From Squalus acanthias (taxonomy: Eukaryota): a DNA stretch of 64,000 nt. How positions within the stretch are numbered: position 1 is the stretch's first letter; every line of letters starts with the position of its first letter. A model generated the notes under the pieces. It was not told the DNA's origin, ran no database searches, and saw nothing but the letters and a program-made list of their open reading frames with translations. Below, piece after piece: positions 8,065 to 55,010 of the stretch. The stretch is from NCBI GenBank assembly GCA_030390025.1, contig CM059432.1, forward strand, positions 23,748,001 through 23,812,000, in the 5' to 3' direction. Made by a program: the position numbers and the translations under genes.

Positions 8065-8280
8065 CAAATGTGAGAAGTCACACAACACCAGGTTATAGTC
8101 CAACAGTTTTATTTGAAATCACAAGCTTTCGGAGTGCCGCTCCTTCGTCAGGTGAAGTCACCCGACGAAGGAGCAGCGCTCCGAAAGCTTGTGATTTCAA
8201 ATAAAACTGTTGGACTATAACCTGGTGTTGTGCGACTTCTCACATTTGTCTACCCCAGTCCAACACCGGCATCTCCACAT
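8065..8280. mobile_element. Penelope-like element terminus (inverted pseudo-LTR) with hammerhead motifs
   Basis: 91-bp inverted arms 8065-8155 / 8158-8248 plus ~32-bp tail; flanked by direct repeat CATGGCCATAGCA (8054-8066, 8281-8293). Confidence 0.8.
8119..8155 (-). ncRNA. Minimal type I hammerhead ribozyme motif
   Basis: Minus strand UCAC-CUGACGA-A-GGAG(cggca)CUCC-GAAA-GCUU-GUGA. The + arm copy (8158-8194) has core CCGACGA (mutated). Confidence 0.65.
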
Positions 8281-14874: not shown

Positions 14875-17687
14875 TTAAATGTATTTAATGGCCCAGCCTC
14901 CACAGCTCTCTGGGGCAGAGAATTCCACAGATTTATGACCCTCCTGAGAGAAGAAATTCCTCCTCATCTCAGTTCTAAAAGGGCGACGCTTTATTTTAAA
15001 ACTGTGACCCCGAGTTCTAGATTTCCCCACGAGGAGAAACATCCTCTCTTCATCTACCTTGTCGAGCCCCCTCAGTATCTTATATGTTTCAATAAGATCA
15101 CCTCTCATTCTTCTAAATTCCAATGAGTATAGGCCCAGCCTGCTCAACCTTTCCTCATAAGTCAACCCCCTCATCTCTGGAATTAACCTAGTGAATCGTC
15201 TCTGAGCTGCCTCCAATGCAAGTATATCCTTCCTTAAATAAGGAGACCAAAACTGTACGCAGTACTCAAGGTGTGGTCTCACCAATACCCTGTACAGTTG
15301 TAGCAGGACTTCCCTGTTTTTATACTCCAACCCCCTTGAAATAAAGGCCAACATTCCATTTACCTTTTTGATTACTTGCTGTACCTGCATGCTAACATTT
15401 TCTGTTTCATGCACAAGGATCCCCAGGTCCCTCTGAACTGTAGCATTTTGTAATCTCTCTCCATTTAAATAATAATTTGCTTTTTTATTTTTCCTGCCAA
15501 AGTGGATAACCTTGCACTTTCCCACATTATACTCCATCTGCCAAACGTTTGCCCACTCACTTAGCCTGTCTATATCCCTTTGCAGGTTCTTTGAGTCCTC
15601 TGCACAACTTGCTTTCCCACCCATCTTTGTATCATCCGCAAACTTGGCTACATTACACTCGGTCCCTTCATCCAAGTCATTAATGTAGATTGTAAATAGT
15701 TGAGGCCCCAGCACCGATCCCTGTGGCACCCCACTAGTTACCATTTGCCAACCAGAAAATGACCCATTTATCCCGACTCTCTGCTTTCTGTTAGTTAGCC
15801 AATTCTCTATCCATGCTAATATATTACCCCCAATTCCGTGAGCTCTTATCTTATGCAGTAACCTTTTATGTGGCACCTTCTCGAATTCCTTCTGGAAATC
15901 CAAATACACCACATCTACTGGTTCACCTTTGTCCACCCTGCTCGTTACATCCTCAAAGAACTCCAGCAAATTTGTTAAACATGATTTCCCTTTCATAAAA
16001 CCATGCTGACTCTGCCTGACTGCATTATGATTTTCCAAATGCCCTGCTACTGCTTCCTTTAATGAAGGACTCCAGCATTTTCCCAATGACAGAGGTTAGG
16101 CTAACTGGTCTATAGTTTCCTGCTTTCTGTCTCCCTCCTTTCTTAAATAGGGTGTTACATTTGCGGTTTTCCAATCCGCTGGGACTTCTCCAGAGTCCAG
16201 GGAATTTTGGTATATTGCAACCAATGCATCCACTATCTCTGCAGCCACTTATTTTAAGACCCTGGGATGCAGGCCATCTGGTCCAGGGGACTTGTCATCT
16301 TTTAGTCCCATTATTTTACCAAGTACTATTTCCTTAGTGATAGTGATTGTCTTTAGTTCTCCCCTCCCTGTGGCCCCTTGATTATCCATTTTTGGGATGT
16401 TGTTAGTGTCTTCTACCGTGAAGACAGATACAAAATATTTGTTCAGACTCTGTGTCATTTCCCCGTTCTCCATTATTAATTCCCCAGTCTCATCCTCTAA
16501 GGGACCAACGTTTACTTTAGCTACCCTCTTCCTTTTTATATACCTGTAGAAGCTCTTACGATCTGTTTTAATGTTTCTTGCCAGTTTTCTCTCAGAATTC
16601 ATCTCTATTATATTTTTAGTCATCCTTTGCAGGTTTTTAAAAATTTCCCAATCCTCTGGTCTCCCACCAATCTTGGCAACATTGTATGCCTTCATTTTCA
16701 ATTTGATACTATCCTTTACTTCCTTAGTTAGCCACGGATGGTGCTCCCTTCTCTTAAAATCTTTCTTTCTCGCTGGAATATATTTTTGTTGAGAGTTAGG
16801 AAATATCTCCTTAAATGTCCGCCACTGCATTTCAACTGTCTTACCCTTTCATTTATTTTTCCAGTCCACTTTAGCCAGTTCTGCCCTCATACCATTTTAA
16901 TTGCCTTTGTTTAAGATCAGGACACTGGTTTGAGATACAACTTTCTCACCCTCCAACTGAATTTGAAATTCAACCAAGCTATGATCACTCTTTCCTAGAG
17001 GATCCTTCACTGTGAGATCATTTATTAATTCTGTCTCATTGCACAGTACCAGATCCAAGATCGCCTGCTCCCTGGTTGGTTCCATTACATACTGTTCTAG
17101 GAAACCATCCCGGATGCACTCTATGAACTCCTCCTCAAGACTACCATGTCCAATTTGATTTGTCCAATCAATATGGAGATTAAAATTACCCATGATTATT
17201 ACCGTACCTTTTTTACAGACCTCCATTATTTGTTGATTTATACTCTGTCCAACAGTACTGCTACTGTTCGTGGGCCTGTAGACTACGCCCACCAGAGACT
17301 TTTTCCCTTTATTATTTTTATCTCCACCCAAACCGATTCTACATCTTGATCTTCTGATCCAATATCACTTCTCGCCACTGCACTGATTCCATCCTTTACC
17401 AACAAAGCCACCCCACCTCCCTTTCCTTTCTGTCTGTCCTTCCGAATTGTCAGATACCCTGGAATATTCAGTTCCCTGCCCTGATCACCTTGCAACCACG
17501 TCTCTGTAATGGCGATCAGATCATACCCATTTGTATCTATTTGTGCCGTCAACTCATCTATCTTGTTAGGAATGCTGCGTGCATTCAGATATAGAGCTTT
17601 TAACTTTGTCTTTTTACCATTTCTCCTTGTTTTGGCCCCATTTTCTGTTGCACTCTTATTTTTAAACATTCTGCCCCTTCCTGTCAC
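14875..17687 (-). pseudogene. CR1 ORF2 (APE endonuclease + reverse transcriptase), few disruptions
   Basis: YLNARSI, ITETWL, GVVYRP, SDH, KSPGPDGLHPRVLK, QHGF, GVPQGSVLGP, FADDTK, VRPHLEYC; split over five ORFs by stops and frameshifts. Confidence 0.93.
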
Positions 17688-17788
17688 ACTCTGGTTATTA
17701 TTTCCCCCATCTCTATCCTGCTCTATTGTTTTCTCATTTCTCGTTGACTTTTTAAATTCCCGCTCACCTGGATCCTCCCCCCCACTAT

Positions 17789-18742
17789 TTAGTTTAAAGC
17801 CCTCTCTACTGCCCTAGTTATTCGATTCACCAGGACTCTAGCCCCAGCCTGGTTCAAGTGAAGCCCGTCCAAACGGAACAGCTCCCTCTTATCCCAGTAC
17901 TGGTGCCAGTGCCCCATAAATCGAAACCCATTTCTCCCACACCAGTATTTGAGCCACTCGTTCATTTCTCTGATCTTATTTACCCTATGCAAATTCGCTC
18001 GTGGCTCAGGTAGTAATCCAGAGATTATTACCTTTGTGGTTCTGCCTTTTAATTTAGCCCCTAGCTGCTCATACTCTCTCAGCAGAACCTCTTTCTTTGT
18101 CCTACCTATGTCATTGGTGCCTACATGGACCATGACAACTGGATCCTCCCCCTCCCACTCCAAGTTTCTCTTCAGCCCAGAGGAGATGTCCTTAACCCTG
18201 GCACCGGGCAGGCAACACAGCCTTCGGGACTCATGCTCTCGGCTGCAGAGAACAGTATCTGTCCCCCTAACTATACTGTCCCCTATCACTACAACATTTC
18301 TTTTTACTCCCCCCACTTGAATGGCTCCCTGTACCACGGTGCTGTGGTCAGATTGCTCATCCTCCCTGCAGTCCCTACCCTCGTCCACACAGGGAGCAAG
18401 AATCTCATACCTGTTAGACAAGGCCAAGGGCTGAGGCTCCTCCATCACTACCTCCTGGATACCAATACCTGCCTCGCTTGTAGTCACACCCTCCTGTCCC
18501 TGACCATGGACCAAATTGGAAGTAATTACTCTAGTGGGTGTGACTGCCTCCTGGAACTTAGCGTCCAGGTAACGTTCCCCCTCCCTAATGTGTCGCAGTG
18601 TCCGAAGCTCGGACTCCAGCTCATCAACTCTGAGCCGAAGTTCCTCGAGCAGCCAACATTTGCTGCAGATGTGGTCGCCTTGGACCTCAATGGTGTCCAC
18701 CAGCTCCCACATGCAACAACAACACATTGCCTGGTCTCCCAT
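17789..18742 (-). CDS. CR1 ORF1 (zinc finger/leucine zipper + SGNH esterase), open
   Basis: 317 aa; Cys motif with CSKC, heptad leucines, VVIGDSIVR, HVGTND, DGLHLN blocks. Confidence 0.9.
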   Translation of the reverse strand: MGDQAMCCCCMWELVDTIEVQGDHICSKCWLLEELRLRVDELESELRTLRHIREGERYLDAKFQEAVTPTRVITSNLVHGQGQEGVTTSEAGIGIQEVVMEEPQPLALSNRYEILAPCVDEGRDCREDEQSDHSTVVQGAIQVGGVKRNVVVIGDSIVRGTDTVLCSREHESRRLCCLPGARVKDISSGLKRNLEWEGEDPVVMVHVGTNDIGRTKKEVLLREYEQLGAKLKGRTTKVIISGLLPEPRANLHRVNKIREMNEWLKYWCGRNGFRFMGHWHQYWDKRELFRLDGLHLNQAGARVLVNRITRAVERALN

Positions 18743-18947
18743 CTCAATTCATTAATTAATTAGTTTTAAAATTTGGAACACGTATATCTTTTAATCTACA
18801 CCAAGGCACTTAAATGTAGACTCCCAAGTTTGGGAAAAAAAGCGAGAAATATAGAAATACTCGCCAACCAATCACTTACCTGCTTTCTGGTGACGTCACA
18901 CTTCGATTACTTTTTACATCTTTACATTCACCGGTCTGTTGTGCCCG

Positions 18948-20186
18948 TTCTCCTGGGCTCTCACTGTTTTTGTAACTCCGAACTCTCGCGCTCTCCCGGG
19001 CTCCCGCTCACCTTTAGTAGCTCCGAACTCTCGCGCTCTCTCCTGGGCACCCGCTCACCATTAGTAGCACCGAACTCTCGCTCTCGCCTGGACACCCGCT
19101 CACCATTAGTAGCTCCGAACTCTCGCTCTCTCCTGGGCTCTCGCTCACCTTTAGTAGCTCCGAACTCTCGCTCTCTCCCGGGCTCCTGCTGTTTTAGTAG
19201 CTCCGAACTCTCACTCTCCTGGGCTCTTGCTCACCTTTAGTAGCTCCGAACTCTCGCTCTCTCGTGGCCTCCCGCTCACCGTTAGTAGCTCCGAACTCTC
19301 GCTCTCTCCTGGGCTCCCGCTCACCTTTAGTAGCTCCGAACTCTCACACTCTCCTGGGCTCTTGCTCACCTTTAGTAGCTCCGAACTCTCGCTCTCTCGT
19401 GGCCTCCCGCTCACCGTTAGTAGCTCCGAACTCTCGCTCTCTCCTGGGCTCCCGCTCACCTTTAGTAGCTCCGAACTCTCGCTCTCTCCTGGGCTCCCGC
19501 TCACCTTTAGTAGCTCCGAACTCTCGCTCTCTCCTGGGCTCCCGCTCACCTTTAGTAGCTCCGAACTCTCACTCTCCCGGGCTCCTGCTCACCTTTAGTA
19601 GCTCCGAACTCTCGCTCTCTCCTGGGCTCCCGCTCACCTTTAGTAGCTCCGAACTCTCACACTCTCCTGGCCTCCCGCTCACCTTTAGTAGCTCCGAACT
19701 CTCGCGCTCTCCTGGGCTCCTGCTCACCTTTAGTAGCTCCGAACTCTCGCTCTCTCCTGGGCTCCCGCTCACCTTTAGTAGCTCCGAACTCTCGCTCTCT
19801 CCTGGGCTCCCGCTCACCTTTAGTAGCTCCGAACTCTCGCTCTCTCCTGGGCTCCCGCTCACCTTTAGTAGCTCCGAACTCTCGCTCTCTCCTGGGCTCC
19901 CGCTCACCTTTAGTAGCTCCGAACTCTCGCTCTCTCCTGGGCTCCCGCTCACCTTTAGCGGTGCCGAACTCTCGCGCTCTCCTGGGCTCCCGCTCACCTT
20001 TAGTAGCTCCGAACTCTCGCGCTCTCCTGGGCTCCCGCTCACCTTTAGTAGCTCCGAACTCTCGCGCTCTCCTGGGCTCCCGCTCAACTTAAGTAGCTCC
20101 GAACTCTCGCTCTCTCCTGGGCTCCTGCTGTTTTAGTAGCTCCGAACTCTCGCGCTCTCCTGGGCTCCCCCTGTTTTAGTAGCTCC
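18948..20186. repeat. 45-bp tandem array, about 27 units (left part)
   Basis: Unit CTCACCTTTAGTAGCTCCGAACTCTCGCTCTCTCCTGGGCTCCCG with shorter CTGTTTTAG variants; no spacers. Confidence 0.95.
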
Positions 20187-20560
20187 TGAAGTAAGCCCCC
20201 AAAGTGCGGACCAAGTGATATACAAGGTCGACGCTACTGGCTTGTTGAAAGAAAGACAGACCAAGTAATTGAAGTCACAACGGTTTATTCAGGCCTGGGG
20301 AGAACCTCTTACGTTGCTGCGTAAGTCCAACTCCACCGAGCTAATCAAAGCACACATATTTGTACAACATTTCTGCCTTACCCTTACGGAGATCCAATTA
20401 ATTTTAGAAGTTACACATTTACTCATTATCCGAGGGTGGCGGTTTATACAAAGATAACACATAATTTACACACAATGCTGTGCTAGCCCATGATGTGGTT
20501 TCCAGAACTGTGCTCGCTGTTTTCTGTTAATCTCGTTATAGGCCTGCTTCTGTTAATCTC

Positions 20561-21159
20561 CATGATACGGAGATGCCGGTGTTGGACTGGGGTGGACAAA
20601 ATTGAGAGGTCGCACAACACCAGGTTATAGTCCAACAGTTTTATTTGAAATCACAAGCTTTCGGAGCTATCGATCGCCCCTTCCTCAGGTGAAGTAAAGA
20701 AATACAGACTCGACAAAGCATATATAGATAGAGAACAATGCATGTGTACCTTACAATTGCAGACAACTAAATTAAATCATCCTGACTATCTGCCGAGGTG
20801 TGATAAAGTTAATCAGGTCAGCCAGGAAGGTACCACATCAAAGACATAGCAAGATACAACTGAGACAATGACCCCTGCGACTCCACCTCATTGTCTCAGT
20901 TGTATCTTGCTATGTCTTTGATGTGGTACCTTCCTGGCTGACCTGATTAACTTTATCACACCTCGGCAGATAGTCAGGATGATTTAATTTAGTTGTCTGC
21001 AATTGTAAGGTACACATGCATTGTTCTCTATCTATATATGCTTTGTCGAGTCTGTATTTCTTTACTTCACCTGAGGAAGGGGCGATCGATAGCTCCGAAA
21101 GCTTGTGATTTCAAATAAAACTGTTGGACTATAACCTGGTGTTGTGCGACCTCTCAATT
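20561..21159. mobile_element. Penelope-like inverted pseudo-LTR insertion
   Basis: Arms 20600-20871 / 20888-21159 (272 bp, no mismatch seen), 16-bp loop, 39-bp tail; flanked by CTGTTAATCTC; same family as 8065-8280. Confidence 0.85.
21067..21108 (+). ncRNA. Minimal type I hammerhead ribozyme motif (mirror copy on - strand at 20651-20692)
   Basis: UCAC-CUGAGGA-A-GGGGC(gaucgaua)GCUCC-GAAA-GCUU-GUGA: both core boxes, helix II, palindromic AAGCUU helix III, UCAC/GUGA helix I. Confidence 0.7.
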
Positions 21160-21248
21160 CTGTTAATCTCGTCATAGGCCTGCTTTTCTGCAAATGAGTC
21201 ATGCCCGTCTTGCCCTTGTTTTGTCCAATTTTTTAATATCTTACTTCA

Positions 21249-21260
21249 GTCCCCCCTTTT
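21249..21260 (-). promoter_or_regulatory. Polypurine tract
   Basis: AAAAGGGGGGAC immediately before the 3' LTR TG. Confidence 0.9.
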
Positions 21261-21660
21261 GACCTATTGGACAACTGTTCCAATACAGGTCAACATGTAT
21301 TCCTGTTGCCTGGTGTTTGCCCGAGCATGCACTCTCTGGCCTTCTACCAGTCTAGGTTATACATGGGTATGACATAAACCAATTTATGAGCCGGTTTCAC
21401 CCCACACGGTATATGTGGTCTTTTTTTTTTGTCTTTGTTCTTATGTTGCCATTCCCGGGGCCCCAGAGCCCTGCATCAATGGTTTGAGCTTCTGGTTCGA
21501 GCTCGTCCTCCATCCCCCGGTGGGTGCGTGACGTGTCCTTTCGAGACTGTCATCACTCACCAATCCTGTTTCTGCCACTCCCGTCTTACGGTTGGCCGGC
21601 CTGGTTATTAATTACCATGTCCAATTCATTCCTTGTAATTTTAGGGCTATAGATCGGGTC

Positions 21661-22995
21661 TTACACCATTCTCATAAGAGTGGCTGAGGGATCTCCTGCG
21701 AGAAGCTCCTCATCCTCCTTTCTTTCATGGTTTGCCACGGCGCCAATCTTGGCTTTACCTAATCTGGTGCAGAGGCATTTGAGCAGCAAGAATACACAGT
21801 ATATTGTAATAACAATCACGAGGAATATCATTATGCCTTGTACGACTGAGGCGCCCAACGTCCCCAACCATCCTGATCCCCAATCACCAAAATAGGAAGA
21901 GGTGGGGGAGTTTCTAGTTTTTCTTGCCTGTTCTTGTATGTGGGTTGCAAGGTTCTCAATCTCTTCTGAATCATCTGGAATGTAAGTGCAGCATGTTGGT
22001 CCTATTATGGCACACGTCCCTCCTTCCTTTGCTAATAGATAATCTAGGGCTATCCGGTTCTGCATTGAGACAGTACGTACAGCTACCAATTCTTCATTTA
22101 TTGATCTGGCCATCCCGGCCGTATCATTGGCTACTTGTTCCAATAATGTATTTAATTGGTCCGTTTCTAAAATGGTTCTATGTACCCCATAGAAAGGCCA
22201 CATTATGGCCATAACCTTTTCCCAGGTTTGCACCGCCCGTTTGCTCCTGCCCATTGGGACCCCTTGTTGGGCGTCGGTTAGGGTTTTGTGGTGGGTTACA
22301 TATGGCTGTACATAGCCGAGGTAACATGATCCTCTCCAGTTGGATGGCAGCCAGGGGTACGCCCTTTCACCGCATATAAAATACGTGCCATTATAGGCAC
22401 ATGTCCGGGATTCGTCCGTTACCCACGGTATGATAGTGTTCCCTTCCGTGCCATTATCAAGGGGGACAGTTAGATACGTTGCGGTGAACACTGGCCCGTC
22501 TTGGGCTCGTGTCATACTGACATTTTGGCAACATTTACTGCGTCCCATATCCCTTCCCGCTCCTTCCCTTGTTATACAAATTATTCCTTCCACTTTTTCC
22601 TTGAGGGTCAAAAATGGAGGTTCCTGTGTGTTAGTGTACTTGGGAAGATACCACCCTCTGAACCGATCTGGGTCATACCCTGCTGCCTCCCATTGCTTCT
22701 TCACCTGGCTTGTATCCTCCCCCTCGCTATTGATACCGTTATCATTTCCGGTGTTATTTTGATTAAGAAACCAGGATGCCATTTCCGAGTAATTAAAAGG
22801 CACGGGTTTCACCGGAATTCCTTCCTCGGAATTTGTCGGGGCTCCGGAGCAGACCCAACAGCTGGAGAGGTTCAGCTGACTCGCGTATTTCCATGACATA
22901 TACAAGTAACTATTTCCTGTAGTTTTAGGCATCCTTTCTACATTATGGAGTACGCCTAGGCCTATAAGGCCATATATAAGCAGATACTTGATCAT
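21661..22995 (-). CDS. env: Retroviral envelope glycoprotein, gamma-type, intact (444 aa from first ATG)
   Basis: Signal peptide MIKYLLIYGLIGLGVL, CWVC, RSKR furin site, fusion peptide, heptad, ISD-like MQNRIALDYLLAKEGG, CAIIGPTCC (CX6CC), TM helix, tail; no stops. Confidence 0.95.
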   Translation of the reverse strand: MIKYLLIYGLIGLGVLHNVERMPKTTGNSYLYMSWKYASQLNLSSCWVCSGAPTNSEEGIPVKPVPFNYSEMASWFLNQNNTGNDNGINSEGEDTSQVKKQWEAAGYDPDRFRGWYLPKYTNTQEPPFLTLKEKVEGIICITREGAGRDMGRSKCCQNVSMTRAQDGPVFTATYLTVPLDNGTEGNTIIPWVTDESRTCAYNGTYFICGERAYPWLPSNWRGSCYLGYVQPYVTHHKTLTDAQQGVPMGRSKRAVQTWEKVMAIMWPFYGVHRTILETDQLNTLLEQVANDTAGMARSINEELVAVRTVSMQNRIALDYLLAKEGGTCAIIGPTCCTYIPDDSEEIENLATHIQEQARKTRNSPTSSYFGDWGSGWLGTLGASVVQGIMIFLVIVITIYCVFLLLKCLCTRLGKAKIGAVANHERKEDEELLAGDPSATLMRMV

Positions 22996-23202
22996 CTTGT
23001 TCCTTGTTGTCGACCGTCCCTTCTTCCGTCGTTCTTCTAATTTGTCCTGTGGAAATACAAGGCTGGTCGTCACCAGCAGTTAATTATTCCATTCTTACTA
23101 CTTCTACTATCTCGGGCCTTGGGTTACCCCGTACCCGGATACACACTCCTTGATCGACGCATACAGAACCTACAATTATTCAAGCCATGCAGACACATCC
23201 AA

Positions 23203-24189
23203 TTAAATTAGTAGAATGCCTTTCACTTCCTCATCTTGTAACCTTTGTTTGTTAGCAGGCATTGGTTTCATTAAGACCCGTGTCCATGTATACTGTTTGC
23301 CGCCTATTGTAAAGGCGAATTTTTCTTGTGATTCCTCATGCAGGGGAATGGACCAGAATCCGTTTGCGATGTCTAACAAGGTGAATATTTTGTGTTCTGG
23401 TTTTAAACCGTTAAAGATAGTAGCTGGGCTTGCTACAATTGGATATTCCTTTGGGGTCACTTTATTTAAGGCTGTGTAATCGATTGTAAGTCGACATGAC
23501 GCATCAGGTTTCTTTACGGGCCATACTGGAGAATTAGTGCCGGACACTGTTTCTCGCAAAATTCCTTGTTTAACTAGTTCCAATACTATACTCCGTACGG
23601 CTGTCTGGGCCTCCATTTTTAGGGGATACTGTTTATGGGGTCGGTGGGTTGGCCCGGGGACTCTGACTGGGTTTATCTTGACCAGTCCGCAGTCCTGCTT
23701 GTGTTTGGCCCATAGTTCGGGGAATCGGTGGCAAATTTCCCCCCATCCTCCCTTTTTGTCCCATTTGGGGTCTATTATTCGGAGAGCGCTGATGGCGCAT
23801 GCTGTCTTGGATCCCTTTGATTTATGTCTCTCTTCCTTATGGTTATCGGGCCATAGCAACTTATCTTGCTTGGGGTCTATTAAAACTCCCACTTCCCTTA
23901 GTATGTCTATACCCAGGATGGTCCCCTCAGTATTTTCACAGATCCAGAAACATGTAGGTATAATGATTTTTCCTAATTCTAGTAATACTGTATCACTTTT
24001 CCATGCTTTAATTTTTACTCCCCCTATCCCGGATATAAAAATATTTTTCTTGGTTCGCGGCAAGGGTACGTTTGTTCGAGATATTGCTGCCCCGGTGTCT
24101 ATGAGCATTCTGCACTGTCGGCCCCCTACCAGTGCCTCAATAAACATTCTAGGGTCTCTCTTTGCCGGGTCTCCGAGGGCCGCTACCTG
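23203..24189 (-). pseudogene. pol: pro-pol: aspartic protease + N-terminal RT, truncated
   Basis: LIDTGA, ILGIDIL, NSPVWPVKKPD, LTIDY, LDIANGFWSIPL, FAFT, QYTWTR; then no LPQG, YxDD, RNase H or integrase core. Confidence 0.93.
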
Positions 24190-25736
24190 TCAGGCGTTGC
24201 CCTTTTTTATTTGTTTGACCAGTTTTTCCATTTTCCTTGTCAGCCCCACTATGTCTTCCTCGTCGGAGGTGTCTGAGGAATCGTCTCTCTTATACTTCCT
24301 ACTCTTTCTCCTCTTCCTTTCTTCTCTTCCCCTCTCATCCTCCCAGTCTTGCATTCCCTTCTTGATCAGTTGCGCCACGTTTTCCTCGTTATTCTCTGAC
24401 CTTCCAATACTTGACCCCGGTTTTCCTCCCTGTCTAGGTCCCTGACCTTCCCTTCCTCCTCCTTTATTCCAACATTGTTGTTTCCTATGCCCTGGTTTTC
24501 CACAGTTATGACAGGAAGCCTTTTGCTGAGATGTCTGATTACCCCCCTTGTTCTGTTGCCTCGGGCAATCCCTTTCCATGTGGCCCTCCTGTCCGCAACT
24601 GAAGCATGCCGCCACACTTAATGCATCTTCATTGTCGCTATCCGTCCTTAGAGCAGCTATTTTAGGTTTGGCTTGTTCTTGGGCCTGATTATCTACTTCG
24701 CACGCCCACTGTATTAAATCATCCCAATTATTGTGGACCACTAGCCCCATTTTTATTGCATTCTGGTGCATTGGACTTAGTCCCTGTTTAAATGTTTGCA
24801 GAAAACAAGCGTTGTTTTTGTTTAAGGGGCCTGGGATCCCACAGTTACCCTCAAAGGCGGACCACTTTCGTTTTCCATAATCGATGGCGCTTTCTCCCTT
24901 TTTTTGTGTGATTCCACTTATAGCTGCCCAATTTACGGGGGCCTGTCCCATTGCTGCTTCCACAGCGGCCTTGAATTGGTCGAACTCAGTGTTTAATTGT
25001 TGGATTGTCTGTCCTGTATTTGCGGCCCACTGGCCATTTCCGTGGTTGCCCTGCACTAATCTCCACTGTTCCTCGGGACATTTAGCTCGTACCAATTGAT
25101 CGATATCTATACTATGTAGGGCATGGTTTATGCGTACTTCGCGCAGTTTGTGCCAGAATGTCTGATTATTCTGGCGGTGTTTTAAGGTTGGTAATTCGTT
25201 GAGGAGAATCACCCGATCCTGCAGGCTTAACGGTGTGTAGGTCATTGTTGCGGTGGCCGGCCTGCCCAGTACTGCCGGAACGGCCGGAATTCCCCCCGCC
25301 GCCGGAACTGCCGGGACCGCGGGGATTGCCGGCCTATAATGCAGTCTCACTGGTGCCATCGGAACAGGCTCCGGGGCCACCGACTGGTGTCCTGAATACG
25401 GGGGAGGACAGCCGGTCGGCCCTCCCAGGGCAGTTCCGGGTATACCTTTTCCCGGGAGTCACCCGGTTTTGGGGCGGTTGCAGCTACTGGATATGTCTTA
25501 AGGACTCCGTGCTGGAGCGTACATTCCCGATGGTAACGTGCCGCCACGATAATGTACGCTTTTTCCAATTTATTTTTGGTTTGTTTCATCCACCAGTCCC
25601 TTTGTGTGTCTAGTTTATCGTCCCGGTTCCACCCTGCCTTCCTCATTTTCTCAGTTAGTTTTTTATTCTTGTCATAAACATATCGTGTTACAGACTCTGG
25701 GTCTCCCCAGGGTTCCTTATCCTCTTTACTAGTCAT
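24190..25736 (-). pseudogene. gag: gag with one frameshift
   Basis: ATG at 25736; YPEL in the upstream frame, PPPY in the downstream frame (shift ~25410-25430); MHR-like ITQKKGESAIDY; two CCHC knuckles CFSCGQEGHMERDC and CHNCGKPGHRKQQC. Confidence 0.9.
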
Positions 25737-26301
25737 ATCCAAAGTTTTTGAGTACTCCTATATTTTATTCAATATTTTATACACCCTTGTCACGTGATCA
25801 CAATCCTGTGGTGCTTTGTAGTCCCTACGCCTACTTGATCCTGGCCGTCACGTGGGACTACGTCCTCTTAATTCAGGCTCAGGCTGGCTGTTTGAGACAG
25901 GCACCACCCTTGTCCGAGTTGATCACTCCGTGATTCTCAGTTCAACTTTATACTTTATTGACACAACGGATCTCCCTATACTTTAAGCAGTCACGCGCTT
26001 AGTCTACTTTTCGGCCAGAAGGACTCGTCCTTCATCCAGTGTTAAAACAACCCGTTTAACTACTTCTTAAGAGCCGCACCTCGTGGGCCTACCGGGTTTC
26101 TAAACCCTTGTTTTCCGGTTCCGCAGTCCGGCAGTTTTAACCGCCTTCAATTAAAGGTGTCTTTCTTTTTATAGTTCTTTTGTACGTCGATCTTACTTAA
26201 CGTCTTGCCAGCGATTCACCTCTAATTTTACAGGTGGTAATTTTAAACGTACTCACCCGTCTTAGGTTATCGCTGTCCGAGAGTTTTTGTTCAGATCGCG
26301 T

Positions 26302-26319
26302 ATCTCATCCTCGTCGCCA
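26302..26319 (-). promoter_or_regulatory. Primer binding site, tRNA-Ser(GCU)-like
   Basis: TGGCGACGAGGATGAGAT, 2 nt after the 5' LTR; 17/18 match to the recalled vertebrate tRNA-Ser(GCU) 3' end AUCCCAUCCUCGUCGCCA. Confidence 0.8.
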
Positions 26320-26321
26320 AT

Positions 26322-26777
26322 TGAAGTAAGCCCCCAAAGTGCGGACCAAGTGATATACAAGGTCGACACTACTGGCTTGTTGAAAGAAAGACAGACCAAG
26401 TAATTGAAGTCACAACGGTTTATTCAGGCCTGCGTAAGTCCAACTCCACCGAGCTAATCAAAGCACACATATTTATACAACATTTCTGCCTTACCCTTAC
26501 GGAGATTCAATTAATTTTAAAAGTTACACATTTACTCATTATCCGAGGGTGGCGGTTTATACAAAGATAACACATAATTTACACACAATGCTGTGCTAGC
26601 CCATGATGTGGTTTCCAGAACTGTGCTAGCCGTTTTCTGTTAATCTCATTATAGGCCTGCTTCTGTTAATCTCGTTATAGGCCTGCTTCTGTTAATCTCG
26701 TTATAGGCCTGCTTTTCTGCAAATGAGTCATGCCCGTCTTGCCCTTGTTATGTCCAATTTTTTAATATCTTACTTCA
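26322..26777 (-). repeat. Proviral 5' LTR (456 bp)
   Basis: 9-bp terminal IR; three 26-bp U3 repeats; TATAAA ~26473-26478; AATAAA ~26419-26424. Confidence 0.95.
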
Positions 26778-27009
26778 GCTCCAAACTCTCGCTCTCTCCT
26801 GGGCTCTCGCTCACCTTTAGTAGCTCCGAACTCTCGCGCTCTCCTGGGCTCCCGCTGTTTTAGTAGCTCCGAACTCTCGCACTCTCCTGGGCTCCCGCTG
26901 TTTTAGTAGCTCCGAACTCTCGCTCTCTCCTGGGCTCTCGCTCACCTTTAGTAGCGCCGAACTCTCGCTCGCTCCTGGGCTCCCGCTCACCTTTAGTAGC
27001 TCCGAACTC
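26778..27009. repeat. 45-bp tandem array, right part (about 5 units)
   Basis: Same unit resumes in register after the TSD. Confidence 0.95.
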
Positions 27010-45000: not shown

Positions 45001-45485
45001 ATTCCAAAACTTGCCATGGTGGGGTTGGAACTCTCTGGGACACTAGTCCAGTGCCATAACCACTTCACTACTGCACTTGATACTACTACTTAGTAAAAAG
45101 GTCCCTTTCATTCAGCTCTTGCCAAAACATGAGGAATAGAGCATCCTAAAACTTTCAGTAATAGGAAACTGAAAACATTTATAGTACGACTCAAGTTACC
45201 AAAACACTTCCTTGCTTAATCAAACTGCTTTTTGTTGTAACAATGGGCATGGTTTAGAAATTCTCACTTTTCAAAAACATCTCTGATTTCCCAAACTATA
45301 AACCCAAACAGCAAACCTTCAGGGCATGTTTTTCCAAAAGAGAAAGTAAGTAGTCCAGTAATGCCGTGAAAATGTTTGCCACCGATTCCCCCAGCAATAA
45401 ATTGGAAAATAAGGGATGTTCTAGATGGCAACCTAAAAGGTAGAACCTACCGCCAAATTTATTAATGAGCTTCAGAGTTCAAGAA

Positions 45486-46120
45486 CTGTACATTGGATAG
45501 TTCAACAGCTGTACATTGGATAGTTCAATAGCTGTACATTGGATAGTTCAACAGCTGTACATTGGATGGTTCAACAGCTGTACATTGGATAGTTCAACAG
45601 CTGTACATTGGATAGTTCAATAGCTGTACATTGGATAGTTCAACAGCTGTACATTGGATAGTTCAATAGCTGTACATTGGATAGTTCAACAGCTGTACAT
45701 TGGATAGTTCAACAGCTGTACATTGGATAGTTCAACAGCTGTACATTGGATAGTTCAACAGCTGTACATTGGATAGTTCAACAGCTGTACATTGGATAGT
45801 TCAACAGCTGTACATTGGATAGTTCAATAGCTGTACATTGGATAGTTCAATAGCTGTACATTGGATAGTTCAACAGCTGTACATTGGATAGTTCAACAGC
45901 TGTACATTGGATAGTTCAACAGCTGTACATTGGATAGTTCAACAGCTGTACATTGGATAGTTCAACAGCTGTACATTGGATAGTTCAACAGCTGTACATT
46001 GGATAGTTCAATAGCTGTACATTGGATAGTTCAACAGCTGTACATTGGATAGTTCAACAGCTGTACATTGGACAGTTCAATAGCTGTACATTGGATAGTT
46101 CAATAGCTGTACATTGGATA
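45486..46120. repeat. 23-bp minisatellite, about 27.5 units
   Basis: Unit CTGTACATTGGATAGTTCAA(C/T)AG head to tail. Confidence 0.97.
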
Positions 46121-47004
46121 TAATTACCAAGTGTTATTTATTAATTCTTCTCCAGAAAAGAAGCTACTTAAAAGAATCATTTTGAAAAAGAGTTTACATA
46201 TTTAAGATAAAAGTACTGCAAGAAACAAATTAAGGTCTTTTTAAAAAAAAGAAACCCTAATTAATCCAAAATTAATATTTGGCCGGTGGCGGAAGTTGGT
46301 ATTTAAGAAGTACTTATGCTTATTGACATAAGAAAACTACTAGGCACTTGGTCTAAGCATTAAACAAAGCTTTAATCAATTGTTTTACAACATGGAGGTC
46401 TAGTTGTGTCCTTCACTAGTTCCTGTTACGAATGTCCTGCGCAAGCTGGGCCCGTGCCCGAGTATTTATACTCTCCCTGGACAGTGCCACCCGCAGGCCA
46501 CTCAGTATTATTTCATAAGTCTTTCTTTCATGAATGACATTCATGTCACTTTCCTCATAATTTTTAAAGCTGTGCTGCATGTTGTACCTACAAAAAGATC
46601 TCCATTGGAAAAAAATAGCAATGGAGATATTAATATCAATTACACTGAGTAAATTTGAAAATTTATCTTCCATTGATTGCAAAATCTAACAAAATACTAG
46701 TTATGGAAGTATTTTCAGCGGATAAGGAGTACATGGCTTCTTTACTCTTTGTAATCTTCAGCTAATTTATAATTCAATAAACAGGGTCGGGTCAACATAT
46801 TGCCTTGGATGCAGAAATGACACTGTAAGGAATAATTCCTCCAGCCTTTCACTTCAGCCGTTATTCTTAGTCCCTCTATAATTCACAGTGCAACAGTTTG
46901 TCGATAACTGCAGTCAATATTTGTATAACATCTCATTGCCAAATCCATAGATGAGCAGTCTTGATTCAAGATCATTTTTGGCAATGTGATTCATTCAGTC
47001 ATTC

Positions 47005-51929: not shown

Positions 51930-54900
51930 AGAATAAAACCAGATGGACCACCCGGCATTGACCTCGGCACCGGCTTCGGACACGACAGCGGCACACCCAG
52001 CCCAGTCGACCCTGCAAAGTCTGAAGGGATAATTACTAATCCTAGCTCCTTTAGGGCTACTCCAGATCAGGCGTATTCCTCAGACGTTCACTTTCAACTA
52101 AAGTTTGAGGTAGCCGAATCCTAAAGACGCTTAATTGGGTCCAAAGGTCTGGACTATCTCTCCCTAAAGGAAAGGAACAACCTGAAAATGTTACCGTCCT
52201 CCAGATAGCACTTTTAATAAGTTTAGCTAGACTGTAACGTTCCGGATATTATGAGGGTTCGGAAAACTCCCCCAGAATTCTGCAACTCCTCACCAAAGAG
52301 TGGACAGAGATTGAGTTTGTGAGTTTTTGATACAGAAGTCTTATGTGAGACAATTCTAAAAATATATAGATTTATTAAAGAACCGACATGTAATTTACAG
52401 TTGGTGAGTCAATCGCAACATAAACAATTCCAAAAAGAGAAAGCTTACAATCTTATTATCAGAGAACCTTACTCTCAAATCTTAACTTCGCTACAGTTTT
52501 ACAGTTCTTAAAGTTCTATTCAGGATATCAACCAAAATCAAATACCTTTGATCCCCGAGGTACAAAGAGTGGAGACTTACAGAGCCGCCTCTGAAGCCGA
52601 GAATCGCTTTGCCCCTTTAAAGCGAGTCTACTATCCCATTTGAGAGTTCAATATTTATACCCTTTTCCAGTGGTATTACCTTTAAGGTTTTCTTCTGATG
52701 TAAGCTAATTATCTCTAGTCATTTTTCTGCTGACCCCTGCAATTCTTAGTGACCTCAGCTGATAGCATTACAGAATTATGTCTCTTCTCTAGGTGTTCTA
52801 AGTTTACCATAAAAAACGGTGTTATGGCAGGTGTGTGTTTTACTTGATGTCATTTTTACAAAGGCAGATGTTTCTTACTTTTTTGTGCTTCTTTACGAAG
52901 TGTAAATTAGAACACCTTATCCAGGGTGAACCATTGTTTCATTCCGAAAGGTTCAGCCTGTCAGAGCCTTTAACCTTCTGTTTCAATAAGGTTATTGATT
53001 CAATGTCAACAACTATCTTATCTCTATAGCCAGAATGCTTTCACAGCTTTTTCATAGTTAGGTTTCTAGATTTCCAAACCCAGTTTGTCATGTTTTAATA
53101 AGGGCAGAATTCTTTCAAAAGATAGTGTATTTTTCTGAATAGGTTATATGGCTTATTCCTTCACAAGTCCTCCTCACTAACATCTGGGGACTTGTGCCAA
53201 AATTGGGAGAGCTGTCACACAAACTAGTCAAGCAACAAACTGACATAGTCTTACTCACAGAATCATACGTATCAGCCAATGTCCCTGATTCCACCATCAC
53301 CATCCCTGGGTATGTCCTGTCCCACCAGCAGGACAGACCCACCAGAGGTGGCGGCACAGTGGTATATAGTCGGGAGTGAGTGGCCCTGGGAGTCCTCAAC
53401 ATTGAATCCGGACCCCATGAAGTTTCATGGCTTCAGGTCAAGCACGGGCAAGGAAACCTCCTGCTGATTACCACCTACCGCCCTCCCTCAGCTGATGAAT
53501 CAGTACTCCTTCACGTTGAACACCGCTTGGAAGAAGCACTGAGGGTAGCAAGAGCACAGAATGTACTCTGGCTGGGAGACTTCAATGTCCATCACCAAAA
53601 GTGGCTCGGTAGCACCACTACTGACTGAGATGACCGAGTCCTGAAGGACATAACTGCCAGACTGGGACTGCGGCAGGTGGTGAGAGAACCAACACGAGGG
53701 AAAAACCTACTTGACCTCGTCCTCACCAATCTACCTGTCGCAGATGCATATGTCCATGACAGCATTGGTAGCAGTGACCACTGCACAGTCCTTGTGGAGA
53801 CGAAATCTTCTCTTCACACTGAGGACACTCTCCATCATATGTGTGGCACTACCACCGTGCTAAATGGGATAGATTCAGAACAGATCCATCAGCACAAAAC
53901 TGGGCATCCATGAGGTGCTGTGGGCCATCAGCAGCAGCAGAATTGTATTCCACCACAATCTGTAAACTCATGGCCTGGCATATCCCTCATTCTACCATTA
54001 CCATCAAGCCAGGGGACCAACTCTGGTTCAATGAGGAGTGCAGAAGAACATGCCAGGAGCAGCACCAGGCATACCTAAAAATGGGGCGCCAACCTGGGGA
54101 AGCTGCAACACAGGACTACATGCATGCTAAACAGCGGAAGCAGCATGCTATAGACAGAGCTAAGAGATCCCACAATCAACGAATCAGATCAAAGCTCTGC
54201 AGTCCTGCCACATCCAGTTGTGAATGGTGGTGGACAATTAAACAACTAACGGGAGGAGGAGGTTCCATGAATATCCCCATCCTCAACGATGCTGGATCCC
54301 AGCACGCGAGTGCAAAAGACAAGGCTGAAGCCAGAAGTGCCGAGTGGATGATCCATATCGGCCTCTTCCTGAGGTCCCCACCATTACAGAAGCCAGTCTT
54401 CAGCCAATTCGATTCACTCCATGTGATGTCAAGAAACGGGCTGAGCGCACTGGATACAGCAAAGGCTATGGGCCCTGACAACATCCCGGCTGTTATGCTG
54501 AAAACTTGTGCTCCAGAACTAGCCGCCCCTCTAGCCAAGCTTTTCCAGTACAACTACAACACTGGCATCTACCCGACAATGTGGAAAATTGCCCAGGTAA
54601 GTCCTGTCCACAAAAAGCAGGACAAATCCAATCTGGCCAATTACTGCCCCATCAGTCTACTCTCAATCATCACTCTACAAGATGCACTGCAGCAACTCAC
54701 CAAGGGCTTCTTCGGCAGCACCTCCCAAACCCGCGACCTCTACCGCCTAGAAGGACAAGGGCAGCAGGCGCATGGGAACACTATTACTTGCAATTTGCCC
54801 TCCAAGTTACACACCTTCCTGACTTGGAAATATATCGCCGTTCCTTCATCGTCGCTGGGTCAAAAACCTGGAACTCCCTCCCTAACAGCACTGTGGGAGC

Positions 54901-55010
54901 ACCTTCACCACACGGACTGCAGCGGTTCAAGAAGGCAGCTCACCACCATTAGGGATGGGCAATAAATGCTGGCCTTGCCAGCGACGCCCACGTCCCAGGA
55001 ACGAATTAAA
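51930..55010 (+). mobile_element. LINE family B with endonuclease, most of RT deleted
   Basis: KVLLTNIWGL, DIVLLTESY, TYRPPS, GDFN, SDH, KAMGPDNIP, CPISLLSII, then a jump (~54670) to the C-terminus and 3' hairpin. Confidence 0.88.
52022..53163 (-). mobile_element. Solo LTR (1142 bp) inserted at the start of the LINE endonuclease
   Basis: TGAAGGGATAA / TTATTCCTTCA termini; flanks AAAGTC / CAAGTC; minus-strand TATAAA (~52655) upstream of AATAAA (~52371). Confidence 0.75.

What the first reader, a model, noticed from the sequence alone, without database searches (positions are those of the whole stretch)
24145..24215. gag and pro-pol in one frame, separated by a single UGA: candidate opal readthrough
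Seen: minus strand AAG GGC AAC GCC TGA CAG GTA GCG...AGA ATG TTT continues in frame, with the DTGA aspartate 31 codons after the stop. Knowledge: gamma/epsilon retroviruses read through UAG here, SnRV has a fused gag-pol, and UGA-C is the leakiest stop context. Inference: UGA-based recoding, unusual for retroviruses. Alternative: a post-insertion CGA/TGG to TGA mutation.
Basis: partly seen in the sequence, partly recalled or inferred. Interest (0 to 1): 0.7.

Follow-up and report, generated by a model that had tools for sequence, protein, structure and literature searches.

The report
Shark-type retrovirus gag–pol readthrough stop
A broken retrovirus remnant has one UGA stop between its gag and enzyme genes at the same codon where its relatives have a stop, so it is likely an inherited readthrough site (a known strategy), and a predicted long-range RNA stem shared with those relatives would be its so far undescribed signal.

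Summary
Confirmed: one in-frame TGA (24190-24192, minus strand) separates gag from pro-RT in a defective endogenous retrovirus, probably of a cartilaginous fish. It is not post-insertion damage. All 7 of 7 covering contigs from other runs keep TGA, and five more distant loci (three lineages) carry TAG at the homologous codon. A protease-cleavage-like motif follows the stop; no start codon is conserved. Readthrough is inferred, not measured.

UGA at gag-pol is already reported for SSSV, ZFERV, RMEV and XtERV-S. The snakehead-retrovirus-like locus has TAG, not a fusion. The +4 C is replaced by A in 4 of 7 runs.

New here: an 8-bp long-range stem (+11..+18 with +67..+74) can pair in 30 of 32 cells across four lineages, the best of 95,523 registers. 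It resembles alphavirus extended stem-loops rather than the MLV pseudoknot. Support is moderate: few lineages, covariation not significant, one held-out lineage weak. The scan earlier noted gag-TGA-pol junctions in retrotransposons of other genomes, not this element.

The parts
24190..24192 (-). In-frame TGA ending gag; predicted readthrough codon
   Evidence: unchanged in 7 of 7 covering runs; TAG at homologous codon in L001-L005
24175..24182 (-). 5' arm (+11..+18) of predicted long-range RNA stem
24119..24126 (-). 3' arm (+67..+74) of predicted long-range RNA stem
24175..24186 (-). VAAL, predicted protease cleavage-type motif at codons 2-5 after the stop
   Evidence: motif [VI][AS][AS][LIVA] occurs 3 times in 729 aa: before NC, after the stop, between protease and RT; cleavage is inferred
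24190..25458 (-). gag, main frame (capsid-like region, two CCHC knuckles)
25347..25757 (-). gag N-terminal part in another frame (gag is frameshifted in this copy)
   Evidence: 32% identity over 59 aa to N-terminus of P0006, E 7e-12
23203..24189 (-). pro and N-half of RT; RT similarity ends near 23272, the rest of pol is missing
21661..23079 (-). env ORF, 472 aa stop to stop, open, with TLV_coat domain and CX6CC
26322..26777 (-). 5' LTR (TG...CA)
20187..21248 (-). 3' LTR, interrupted by a ~590-nt fold-back insertion; 9 mismatches in 443 aligned bases to the 5' LTR
26302..26319 (-). Primer-binding site (TGG start, 2 nt after the LTR); match to a serine tRNA is recalled, not tested
21251..21260 (-). 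Polypurine tract
26778..26782 (-). 5-bp target-site duplication GGAGC (other copy 20182-20186), inside a 45-bp minisatellite

Best explanation
The TGA is the inherited end of gag in a defective endogenous retrovirus, and in the ancestral virus a minority of ribosomes likely read through it to make Gag-Pro-Pol, probably helped by a predicted 8-bp long-range RNA stem that starts 7 nt after the stop. Shown: one frame, one stop, same codon position as the TAG of relatives, TGA kept in all covering contigs, pairing potential kept in four lineages. Inferred: that readthrough took place, that the protease then cut itself free at the VAAL motif just behind the stop, and that the stem rather than the +4 base is the stimulator. 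This copy itself cannot make a full Gag-Pol (gag frameshift, most of pol missing).
For: (1) 8 of 20 listed runs were laid; 7 cover the stop and 0 of 7 show another letter there (X1, X4, X8, X9, X10, X11 bridge it; X20 has only 21 letters on one side; X2 has a hole); six organism codes plus one unlabelled run, four study codes. (2) Variants shared between runs are 8 of 14 synonymous against 22-26% expected (P 0.004-0.013), i.e. the variants diverged under protein selection while keeping TGA; sites where the window differs from all or all but one run are 0 of 7 synonymous. (3) 9 of the 10 closest loci have one in-frame stop between a gag-like ORF and a protease-bearing pol ORF (TAG in L001-L005, L009; TGA in L006-L008; L010 is decayed); in L001-L005 it lies 31-32 codons before the catalytic D, as here. 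L002/L004 form a 100/96 clade with the window's group. (4) A cleavage-type motif sits at codon 2-3 after the stop in 4 of 4 lineages; no Met position is shared (15/28, none, 9, 28); -1 or +1 shifts in the last 30 gag codons meet stops by codon +14 or +2. (5) L002/L003 have TAG CAA TTA, the type I readthrough motif; L006-L008 have TGA CTA, type II. (6) Stem: 30 of 32 cells pair, best of 1,760 registers near the stop (next unrelated 21) and of 95,523 over codon-aligned pro-RT (next unrelated 27); RNAalifold finds it unprompted; 3 of 8 pairs have two-sided changes, slid controls pair 31-56% against 94%; synonymous resampling P 0.0008 window, 0.0009 L001 (both used to spot it), 0.018 in held-out L004. 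Spacer of 7-8 nt matches MuLV (8), VEEV (8-9), furoviruses (7).
Against: No readthrough was measured. Some covering contigs could be orthologues of this very insertion (LTRs differ by 2.0%; flanks not seen). One ray gene model (P0028, Mobula hypostoma) runs from Gag into protease with a Lys at the homologous codon, and one horn-shark model (P0006) joins Gag to RT without protease; their DNA was not seen. Stem: covariation is reached by 36 of 500 shuffles; held-out L002 is not significant (P 0.17) and folds otherwise; the window's folding z-scores are -0.75 to +0.49 and the stem is displaced when 120-150 nt are folded, in L001 too; both arms lie on conserved codons; only four independent lineages; absent at that register from L006, L067, L070.
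Confidence: 0.85

Rival explanations
1. Readthrough as above, but driven by local context alone; the long-range stem is a by-product of the codons for Ala-Leu/Ser and Gly-Gly, or serves another role (packaging, genome folding).
For: L002 has a structure-independent type I motif and its stem is not the MFE; window fold not more stable than shuffles; covariation control 36 of 500.
Against: Synonymous positions keep pairing beyond codon-usage expectation in 3 of 4 lineages; the stem keeps its distance from the stop while the peptide motif shifts by one codon in L002/L005; the window's UGA CAG / UGA AAG contexts match none of the three listed strong motifs.
Confidence: 0.35
2. The TGA arose by mutation after insertion from a sense codon in a fused gag-pol; the contigs that share it are orthologues of one old insertion.
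For: The copy is decayed (frameshift, pol deletion, 2.0% LTR divergence); one ray gene model has a sense codon there.
Against: A stop at the same codon in three other lineages with open pol; 1 of 274 possible codons; variants with a synonymous excess all keep TGA; TAG to TGA needs two changes.
Confidence: 0.04
3. The stop is a real terminator and Pol is made separately, from a spliced mRNA or by restart at Met15, as foamy viruses do.
For: A Met at codon 15 is also seen in three close protein relatives (P0025, P0031, P0028); nearest solved RTs by sequence are foamy-virus Pol.
Against: No shared Met across the four lineages and none before the catalytic D in L001; the 14 codons before Met15 stay open and carry the cleavage-type motif; the stretch before Met15 is purine-rich, unlike a splice acceptor (sequence); in-frame arrangement kept in 9 of 10 loci.
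Confidence: 0.08
4. Pol is reached by ribosomal frameshifting at the A AAA AAG heptamer five codons before the stop.
For: One in-phase slippery heptamer at codon -5.
Against: pol is in the gag frame; a -1 shift ends at codon +14; the heptamer's last base differs in 4 runs.
Confidence: 0.01

Closest known systems
Snakehead retrovirus (SnRV); here locus L001, a 10,688-nt viral contig whose junction TAGGGC equals the hexamer PMC13517186 gives for SnRV (length match recalled)
   Same: In-frame stop at the homologous codon, xVAAL after it with the same Ala-Ala-Leu codons, same predicted stem
   Different: TAG versus TGA; one versus two zinc knuckles; 34% identity over pro-RT; tree does not resolve them as one clade
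SSSV, ZFERV and RMEV (fish and toad retroviruses with UGA at gag-pol; PMC13517186 section 4.1.2, passages read)
   Same: UGA as gag terminator in frame with pol; contexts UGAAGA, UGACGA, UGAAGU resemble the UGACAG / UGAAAG seen here
   Different: Described as distantly related to epsilonretroviruses; their sequences were not obtained, so relation and stem were not tested
XtERV-S (Xenopus; PMC8278194, passages read)
   Same: TGA between in-frame gag and pol, 5-bp target duplication, gamma-type env with CX6CC
   Different: XtERV-S lacks zinc knuckles and is class III with dUTPase; this element has two CCHC knuckles
Moloney murine leukaemia virus readthrough signal
   Same: In-frame gag stop, structure starting about 8 nt downstream
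   Different: UAG plus compact H-type pseudoknot; here UGA plus a predicted extended stem with a 48-nt loop; L070 lacks the stem at this register
Alphavirus (VEEV, SINV) and coltivirus UGA readthrough with extended stem-loop (PMC3159437, PMC13517186; passages read)
   Same: UGA, 7-9 nt spacer, two conserved arms far apart in coding sequence
   Different: Unrelated viruses; stems of 10-12 bp and loops of 101-154 nt in alphaviruses; +4 C conserved there, not here
CmiERV lineage I of elephant shark (PMC4422223, first 10,000 of 14,366 characters read)
   Same: Cartilaginous-fish ERV grouping with SnRV
   Different: The text read says nothing on the gag-pol junction; sequences not obtained

Membership tests
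Endogenous retrovirus (Retroviridae) | Paired LTRs with TG...CA, target duplication, PBS, PPT | tested here: met
Endogenous retrovirus (Retroviridae) | gag (CCHC), aspartyl protease, RT, env in that order | tested here: met
   Pfam zf-CCHC, RVP, RVT_1, TLV_coat above cut-off; RNase H and integrase missing in this copy
Programmed gag-pol stop-codon readthrough site | Single in-frame stop at a conserved position | tested here: met
Programmed gag-pol stop-codon readthrough site | No other conserved route to Pol (start codon, frameshift) | tested here: met
   splicing judged from sequence only
Programmed gag-pol stop-codon readthrough site | Stimulatory 3' context or structure | tested here: inconclusive
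   stem supported; weak
Programmed gag-pol stop-codon readthrough site | Measured readthrough above background | not testable with these tools
   needs reporter or ribosome profiling
Gammaretrovirus | RT groups with MLV | tested here: not met
   L070 and L067 form a separate 98/98 pair; 29% identity
Gammaretrovirus | UAG followed by H-type pseudoknot | tested here: not met
   TGA; no pseudoknot search was run, but the stop differs
Epsilonretrovirus | RT groups with WDSV | tested here: not met
   (L067 outside the 100/96 clade that holds the window); only one epsilon row
SnRV-like retroviruses | RT clade with SnRV | tested here: inconclusive
   open fork (86/93); window row fills only 46% of columns
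SnRV-like retroviruses | Homologous gag-pro junction | tested here: met
   (my criterion, not a published one)
ERV4 (crocodilian/turtle; PMC4299795) | No zinc fingers in Gag | tested here: not met
   two CCHC
ERV4 (crocodilian/turtle; PMC4299795) | 5-bp target duplication | tested here: met
Class III ERV-S/L type (XtERV-S) | No Cys-His box; dUTPase after integrase | tested here: not met
   two CCHC; dUTPase region absent from this deleted copy, none in L002 pol

The most novel reading that the evidence does not exclude
A clade of fish and shark retroviruses that includes or neighbours snakehead retrovirus sets its Gag:Pol ratio with an alphavirus-like extended stem-loop rather than a pseudoknot, and keeps this stem while swapping UAG for UGA and changing the +4 base. 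This would be the first defined readthrough signal for retroviruses outside the gammaretroviruses, where the 2026 review calls the cis-elements unclear and a 2013 screen found no pseudoknot in SnRV.
Probability: 0.5. Interest if true: 0.6.

Novelty: new variant of a known kind. Interest (0 to 1): 0.42.

Why it matters
The UGA itself is ordinary for non-mammalian retroviruses. What matters is the candidate signal: PMC13517186 says readthrough has not been verified and its cis-elements are unclear for epsilon and unclassified fish retroviruses, and PMC3835772 found no pseudoknot behind the SnRV stop. An 8-bp stem with defined arms turns that gap into one reporter experiment, and would show the same RNA solution in retroviruses and alphaviruses. 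It also warns annotators not to count this TGA as decay.

Tried and rejected
No whole genome is held, so paralogues could not be aligned directly and flanks of other copies were not seen. Gag word-searches found nothing; weak evidence on fused forms. Among 19 longer hits of pro-RT the close relatives begin at or after the protease, apart from P0006; among the 150 listed of 903 representative hits only P0028 has its best stretch beginning at the junction with Gag upstream. Scans of viral contigs and genome contigs gave no further relatives. 21 of the 56 weaker metagenome loci (L011-L066) were surveyed and do not show the layout; they were left out as probably non-retroviral. No RNA holder listed; X11 is only guessed to be RNA. 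X2 has no cover at the junction. Rfam over 20000-27000 gave one sub-threshold miRNA match on the palindromic insertion, none at the junction. UGA-C as the signal: rejected (+4 varies). Selenocysteine insertion was not searched for. Stem at the same register in L006, L067, L070: absent. Hart 1996 (SnRV genome paper) is not held. Literature searches; none returned a description of this stem, but most subscription papers, Repbase and supplements (none opened) were not seen. PMC5210030, PMC10435555, PMC4977317: passages read, nothing on the junction.

Full report
Observation. On the minus strand the sequence reads AAG GGC AAC GCC TGA CAG GTA GCG, with TGA at 24192-24190. A 422-codon frame with two zinc knuckles ends there and a 328-codon frame with aspartyl protease and the first half of RT follows in the same phase. 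The catalytic aspartate is codon 31.

The element. It is a 6.6-kb provirus with LTRs at 26777-26322 and 21248-20187, a 5-bp target duplication in a 45-bp minisatellite, PBS, PPT and an open env of 472 codons. It is defective: the N-terminal part of gag is in another frame and RT similarity stops near 23272, with env starting about 200 nt later. The LTRs differ at 9 of 443 aligned bases; at the shark rate assumed in PMC4422223 (2.2e-10, which that author flags as uncertain) this is about 46 million years. The closest named proteins are from Mustelus, Heterodontus and Mobula, so the host is probably a cartilaginous fish (inference). In an RT tree of 21 rows the window groups with these (99/97) and then with metagenome loci L002, L004 and P0030 (100/96); loci fetched by the WDSV and MoMLV junction motifs form a separate pair; the relation to L001 is an open fork.

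Is the stop inherited? No genome was held, so I used other runs and relatives. Twenty runs hold the stretch; 8 were laid. Seven cover the stop and none shows another letter at its three positions; X20 covers it with only 21 letters on one side, X2 has a hole. They carry six organism codes plus one unlabelled run, in four studies. Contigs drop rare variants and some may be orthologues of this insertion. But the differences shared between runs are 8 of 14 synonymous where 22-26% is expected (P 0.004-0.013), while the 7 sites at which the window departs from all or all but one run are all non-synonymous (4 single-run sites, 2 synonymous, were counted apart): the variants separated while the proteins were under selection, and all kept TGA. 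Further out, 9 of the 10 closest loci have a single in-frame stop between a gag-like frame and pol: TAG in L001-L005 and L009, TGA in L006-L008. In L002-L005 the stop is 31 codons and in L001 32 codons before the catalytic D. A chance nonsense change had 274 codons to choose from. Against: one ray gene model, P0028, has Lys at the homologous codon and one horn-shark model, P0006, skips the protease; I could not see their DNA.

How Pol is reached. Frameshifts of either sign in the last 30 gag codons meet stops by codon +14. No Met position is shared by the four lineages and L001 has none before the catalytic D. The motif [VI][AS][AS][LIVA] appears only three times in the window's 729 codons (before NC, right after the stop, between protease and RT) and at the same three places in L005; it is at codon 2 or 3 after the stop in 4 of 4 lineages. 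I read it as the protease cleavage site (inference), which is only needed if the stop is translated through. Relatives also carry textbook contexts: TAG CAA TTA in L002/L003, TGA CTA in L006-L008. Readthrough is thus the best explanation; it was not measured.

What drives it. The +4 C is not kept: it is A in X8, X9, X10, X11 and C in X1, X4, X20. Comparing the window with L001 showed identical codons at +10..+18 and a complementary stretch about 50 nt on. Bases +11..+18 can pair with +67..+74 (8 of 8 in the window, 7 in L001 with its extra codon, 7 in L002, 8 in L004). This is the best of 1,760 registers near the stop and of 95,523 across the codon-aligned pro-RT, where the next unrelated score is 27 of 32. 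RNAalifold finds it without being told. Three of eight pairs show two-sided changes; slid controls pair 31-56% against 94%. Resampling synonymous codons gives P 0.0008 and 0.0009 for the two discovery sequences, 0.018 for held-out L004 and 0.17 for held-out L002. Pair probabilities are 0.72-1.0 in the window, L001 and L004 when +10..+80 or +100 is folded. Against: covariation is matched by 36 of 500 shuffles; the window's fold is no more stable than shuffles and the stem is displaced in 120-150-nt folds of the window and L001; L002 folds otherwise; only four lineages; both arms sit on conserved codons. I put the stem's role in readthrough at about even odds.

What is known. PMC13517186 (passages) lists UGA at gag-pol for SSSV, ZFERV and RMEV, UAGGGC for SnRV, and says readthrough in epsilonretroviruses is unverified with unclear cis-elements. 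PMC8278194 (passages) reports an in-frame TGA in XtERV-S. PMC3835772 (passages) found no pseudoknot after the gag stop of WDSV or SnRV. PMC3159437 (passages) describes extended stems 7-12 nt behind UGA in alphaviruses and plant viruses. PMC4299795 (passages) defines ERV4 as lacking zinc fingers, which excludes this element. Seven full-text searches returned no description of the stem; subscription papers, Repbase and supplements were not seen. The serine identity of the PBS and the SnRV genome length are recalled.

Verdict. The remaining novelty is a testable candidate stimulator for a retroviral group whose signal is unknown. Interest 0.42.

Noticed in passing
window 20561-21163: Insertion in the 3' LTR is a fold-back: two 276-nt arms, 100% complementary, 16 nt apart; its ends match a repeat at 8065-8249. 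A very recent fold-back element or an assembly artefact.
   Followed up: partly
window 21661-23079 (-): env stays open over 472 codons in a provirus whose gag and pol are broken and whose LTRs differ by 2%; conservation in other species not checked.
   Followed up: no
window 18968-20169 and 26777-27009: The provirus sits inside a 45-bp minisatellite (26.8 and 5.3 copies) that lies just upstream of a LINE-like element.
   Followed up: partly
window 14875-18748 (-): Decayed LINE-like element with an esterase (GDSL) ORF1-type frame and an RT frame.
   Followed up: partly
window 26635-26714: Three copies of a 26-bp repeat in the U3 part of the 5' LTR.
   Followed up: no
L002:2915-2923 and L003:2467-2475: A retrovirus-like element with TAG CAA TTA, the tobamovirus type I readthrough motif that PMC13517186 says is not found in animal viruses; gag (601 codons) and pol (1,180 codons) are open.
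   Followed up: partly
L006:1031, L007:1225, L008:1225: More distant retroelements with TGA CTA (type II motif) between gag-like and pol frames; L008 has a strong hairpin from about +12.
   Followed up: partly
window 24127 (+66 after the stop): Runs X9 and X10 carry a synonymous variant next to the 3' arm that would allow one more base pair; a single event.
   Followed up: no
window 45338-46258: Large 23-bp tandem array.
   Followed up: no
window 53823-54965 (+): 380-codon open frame without Pfam match, overlapping a dispersed repeat.
   Followed up: partly
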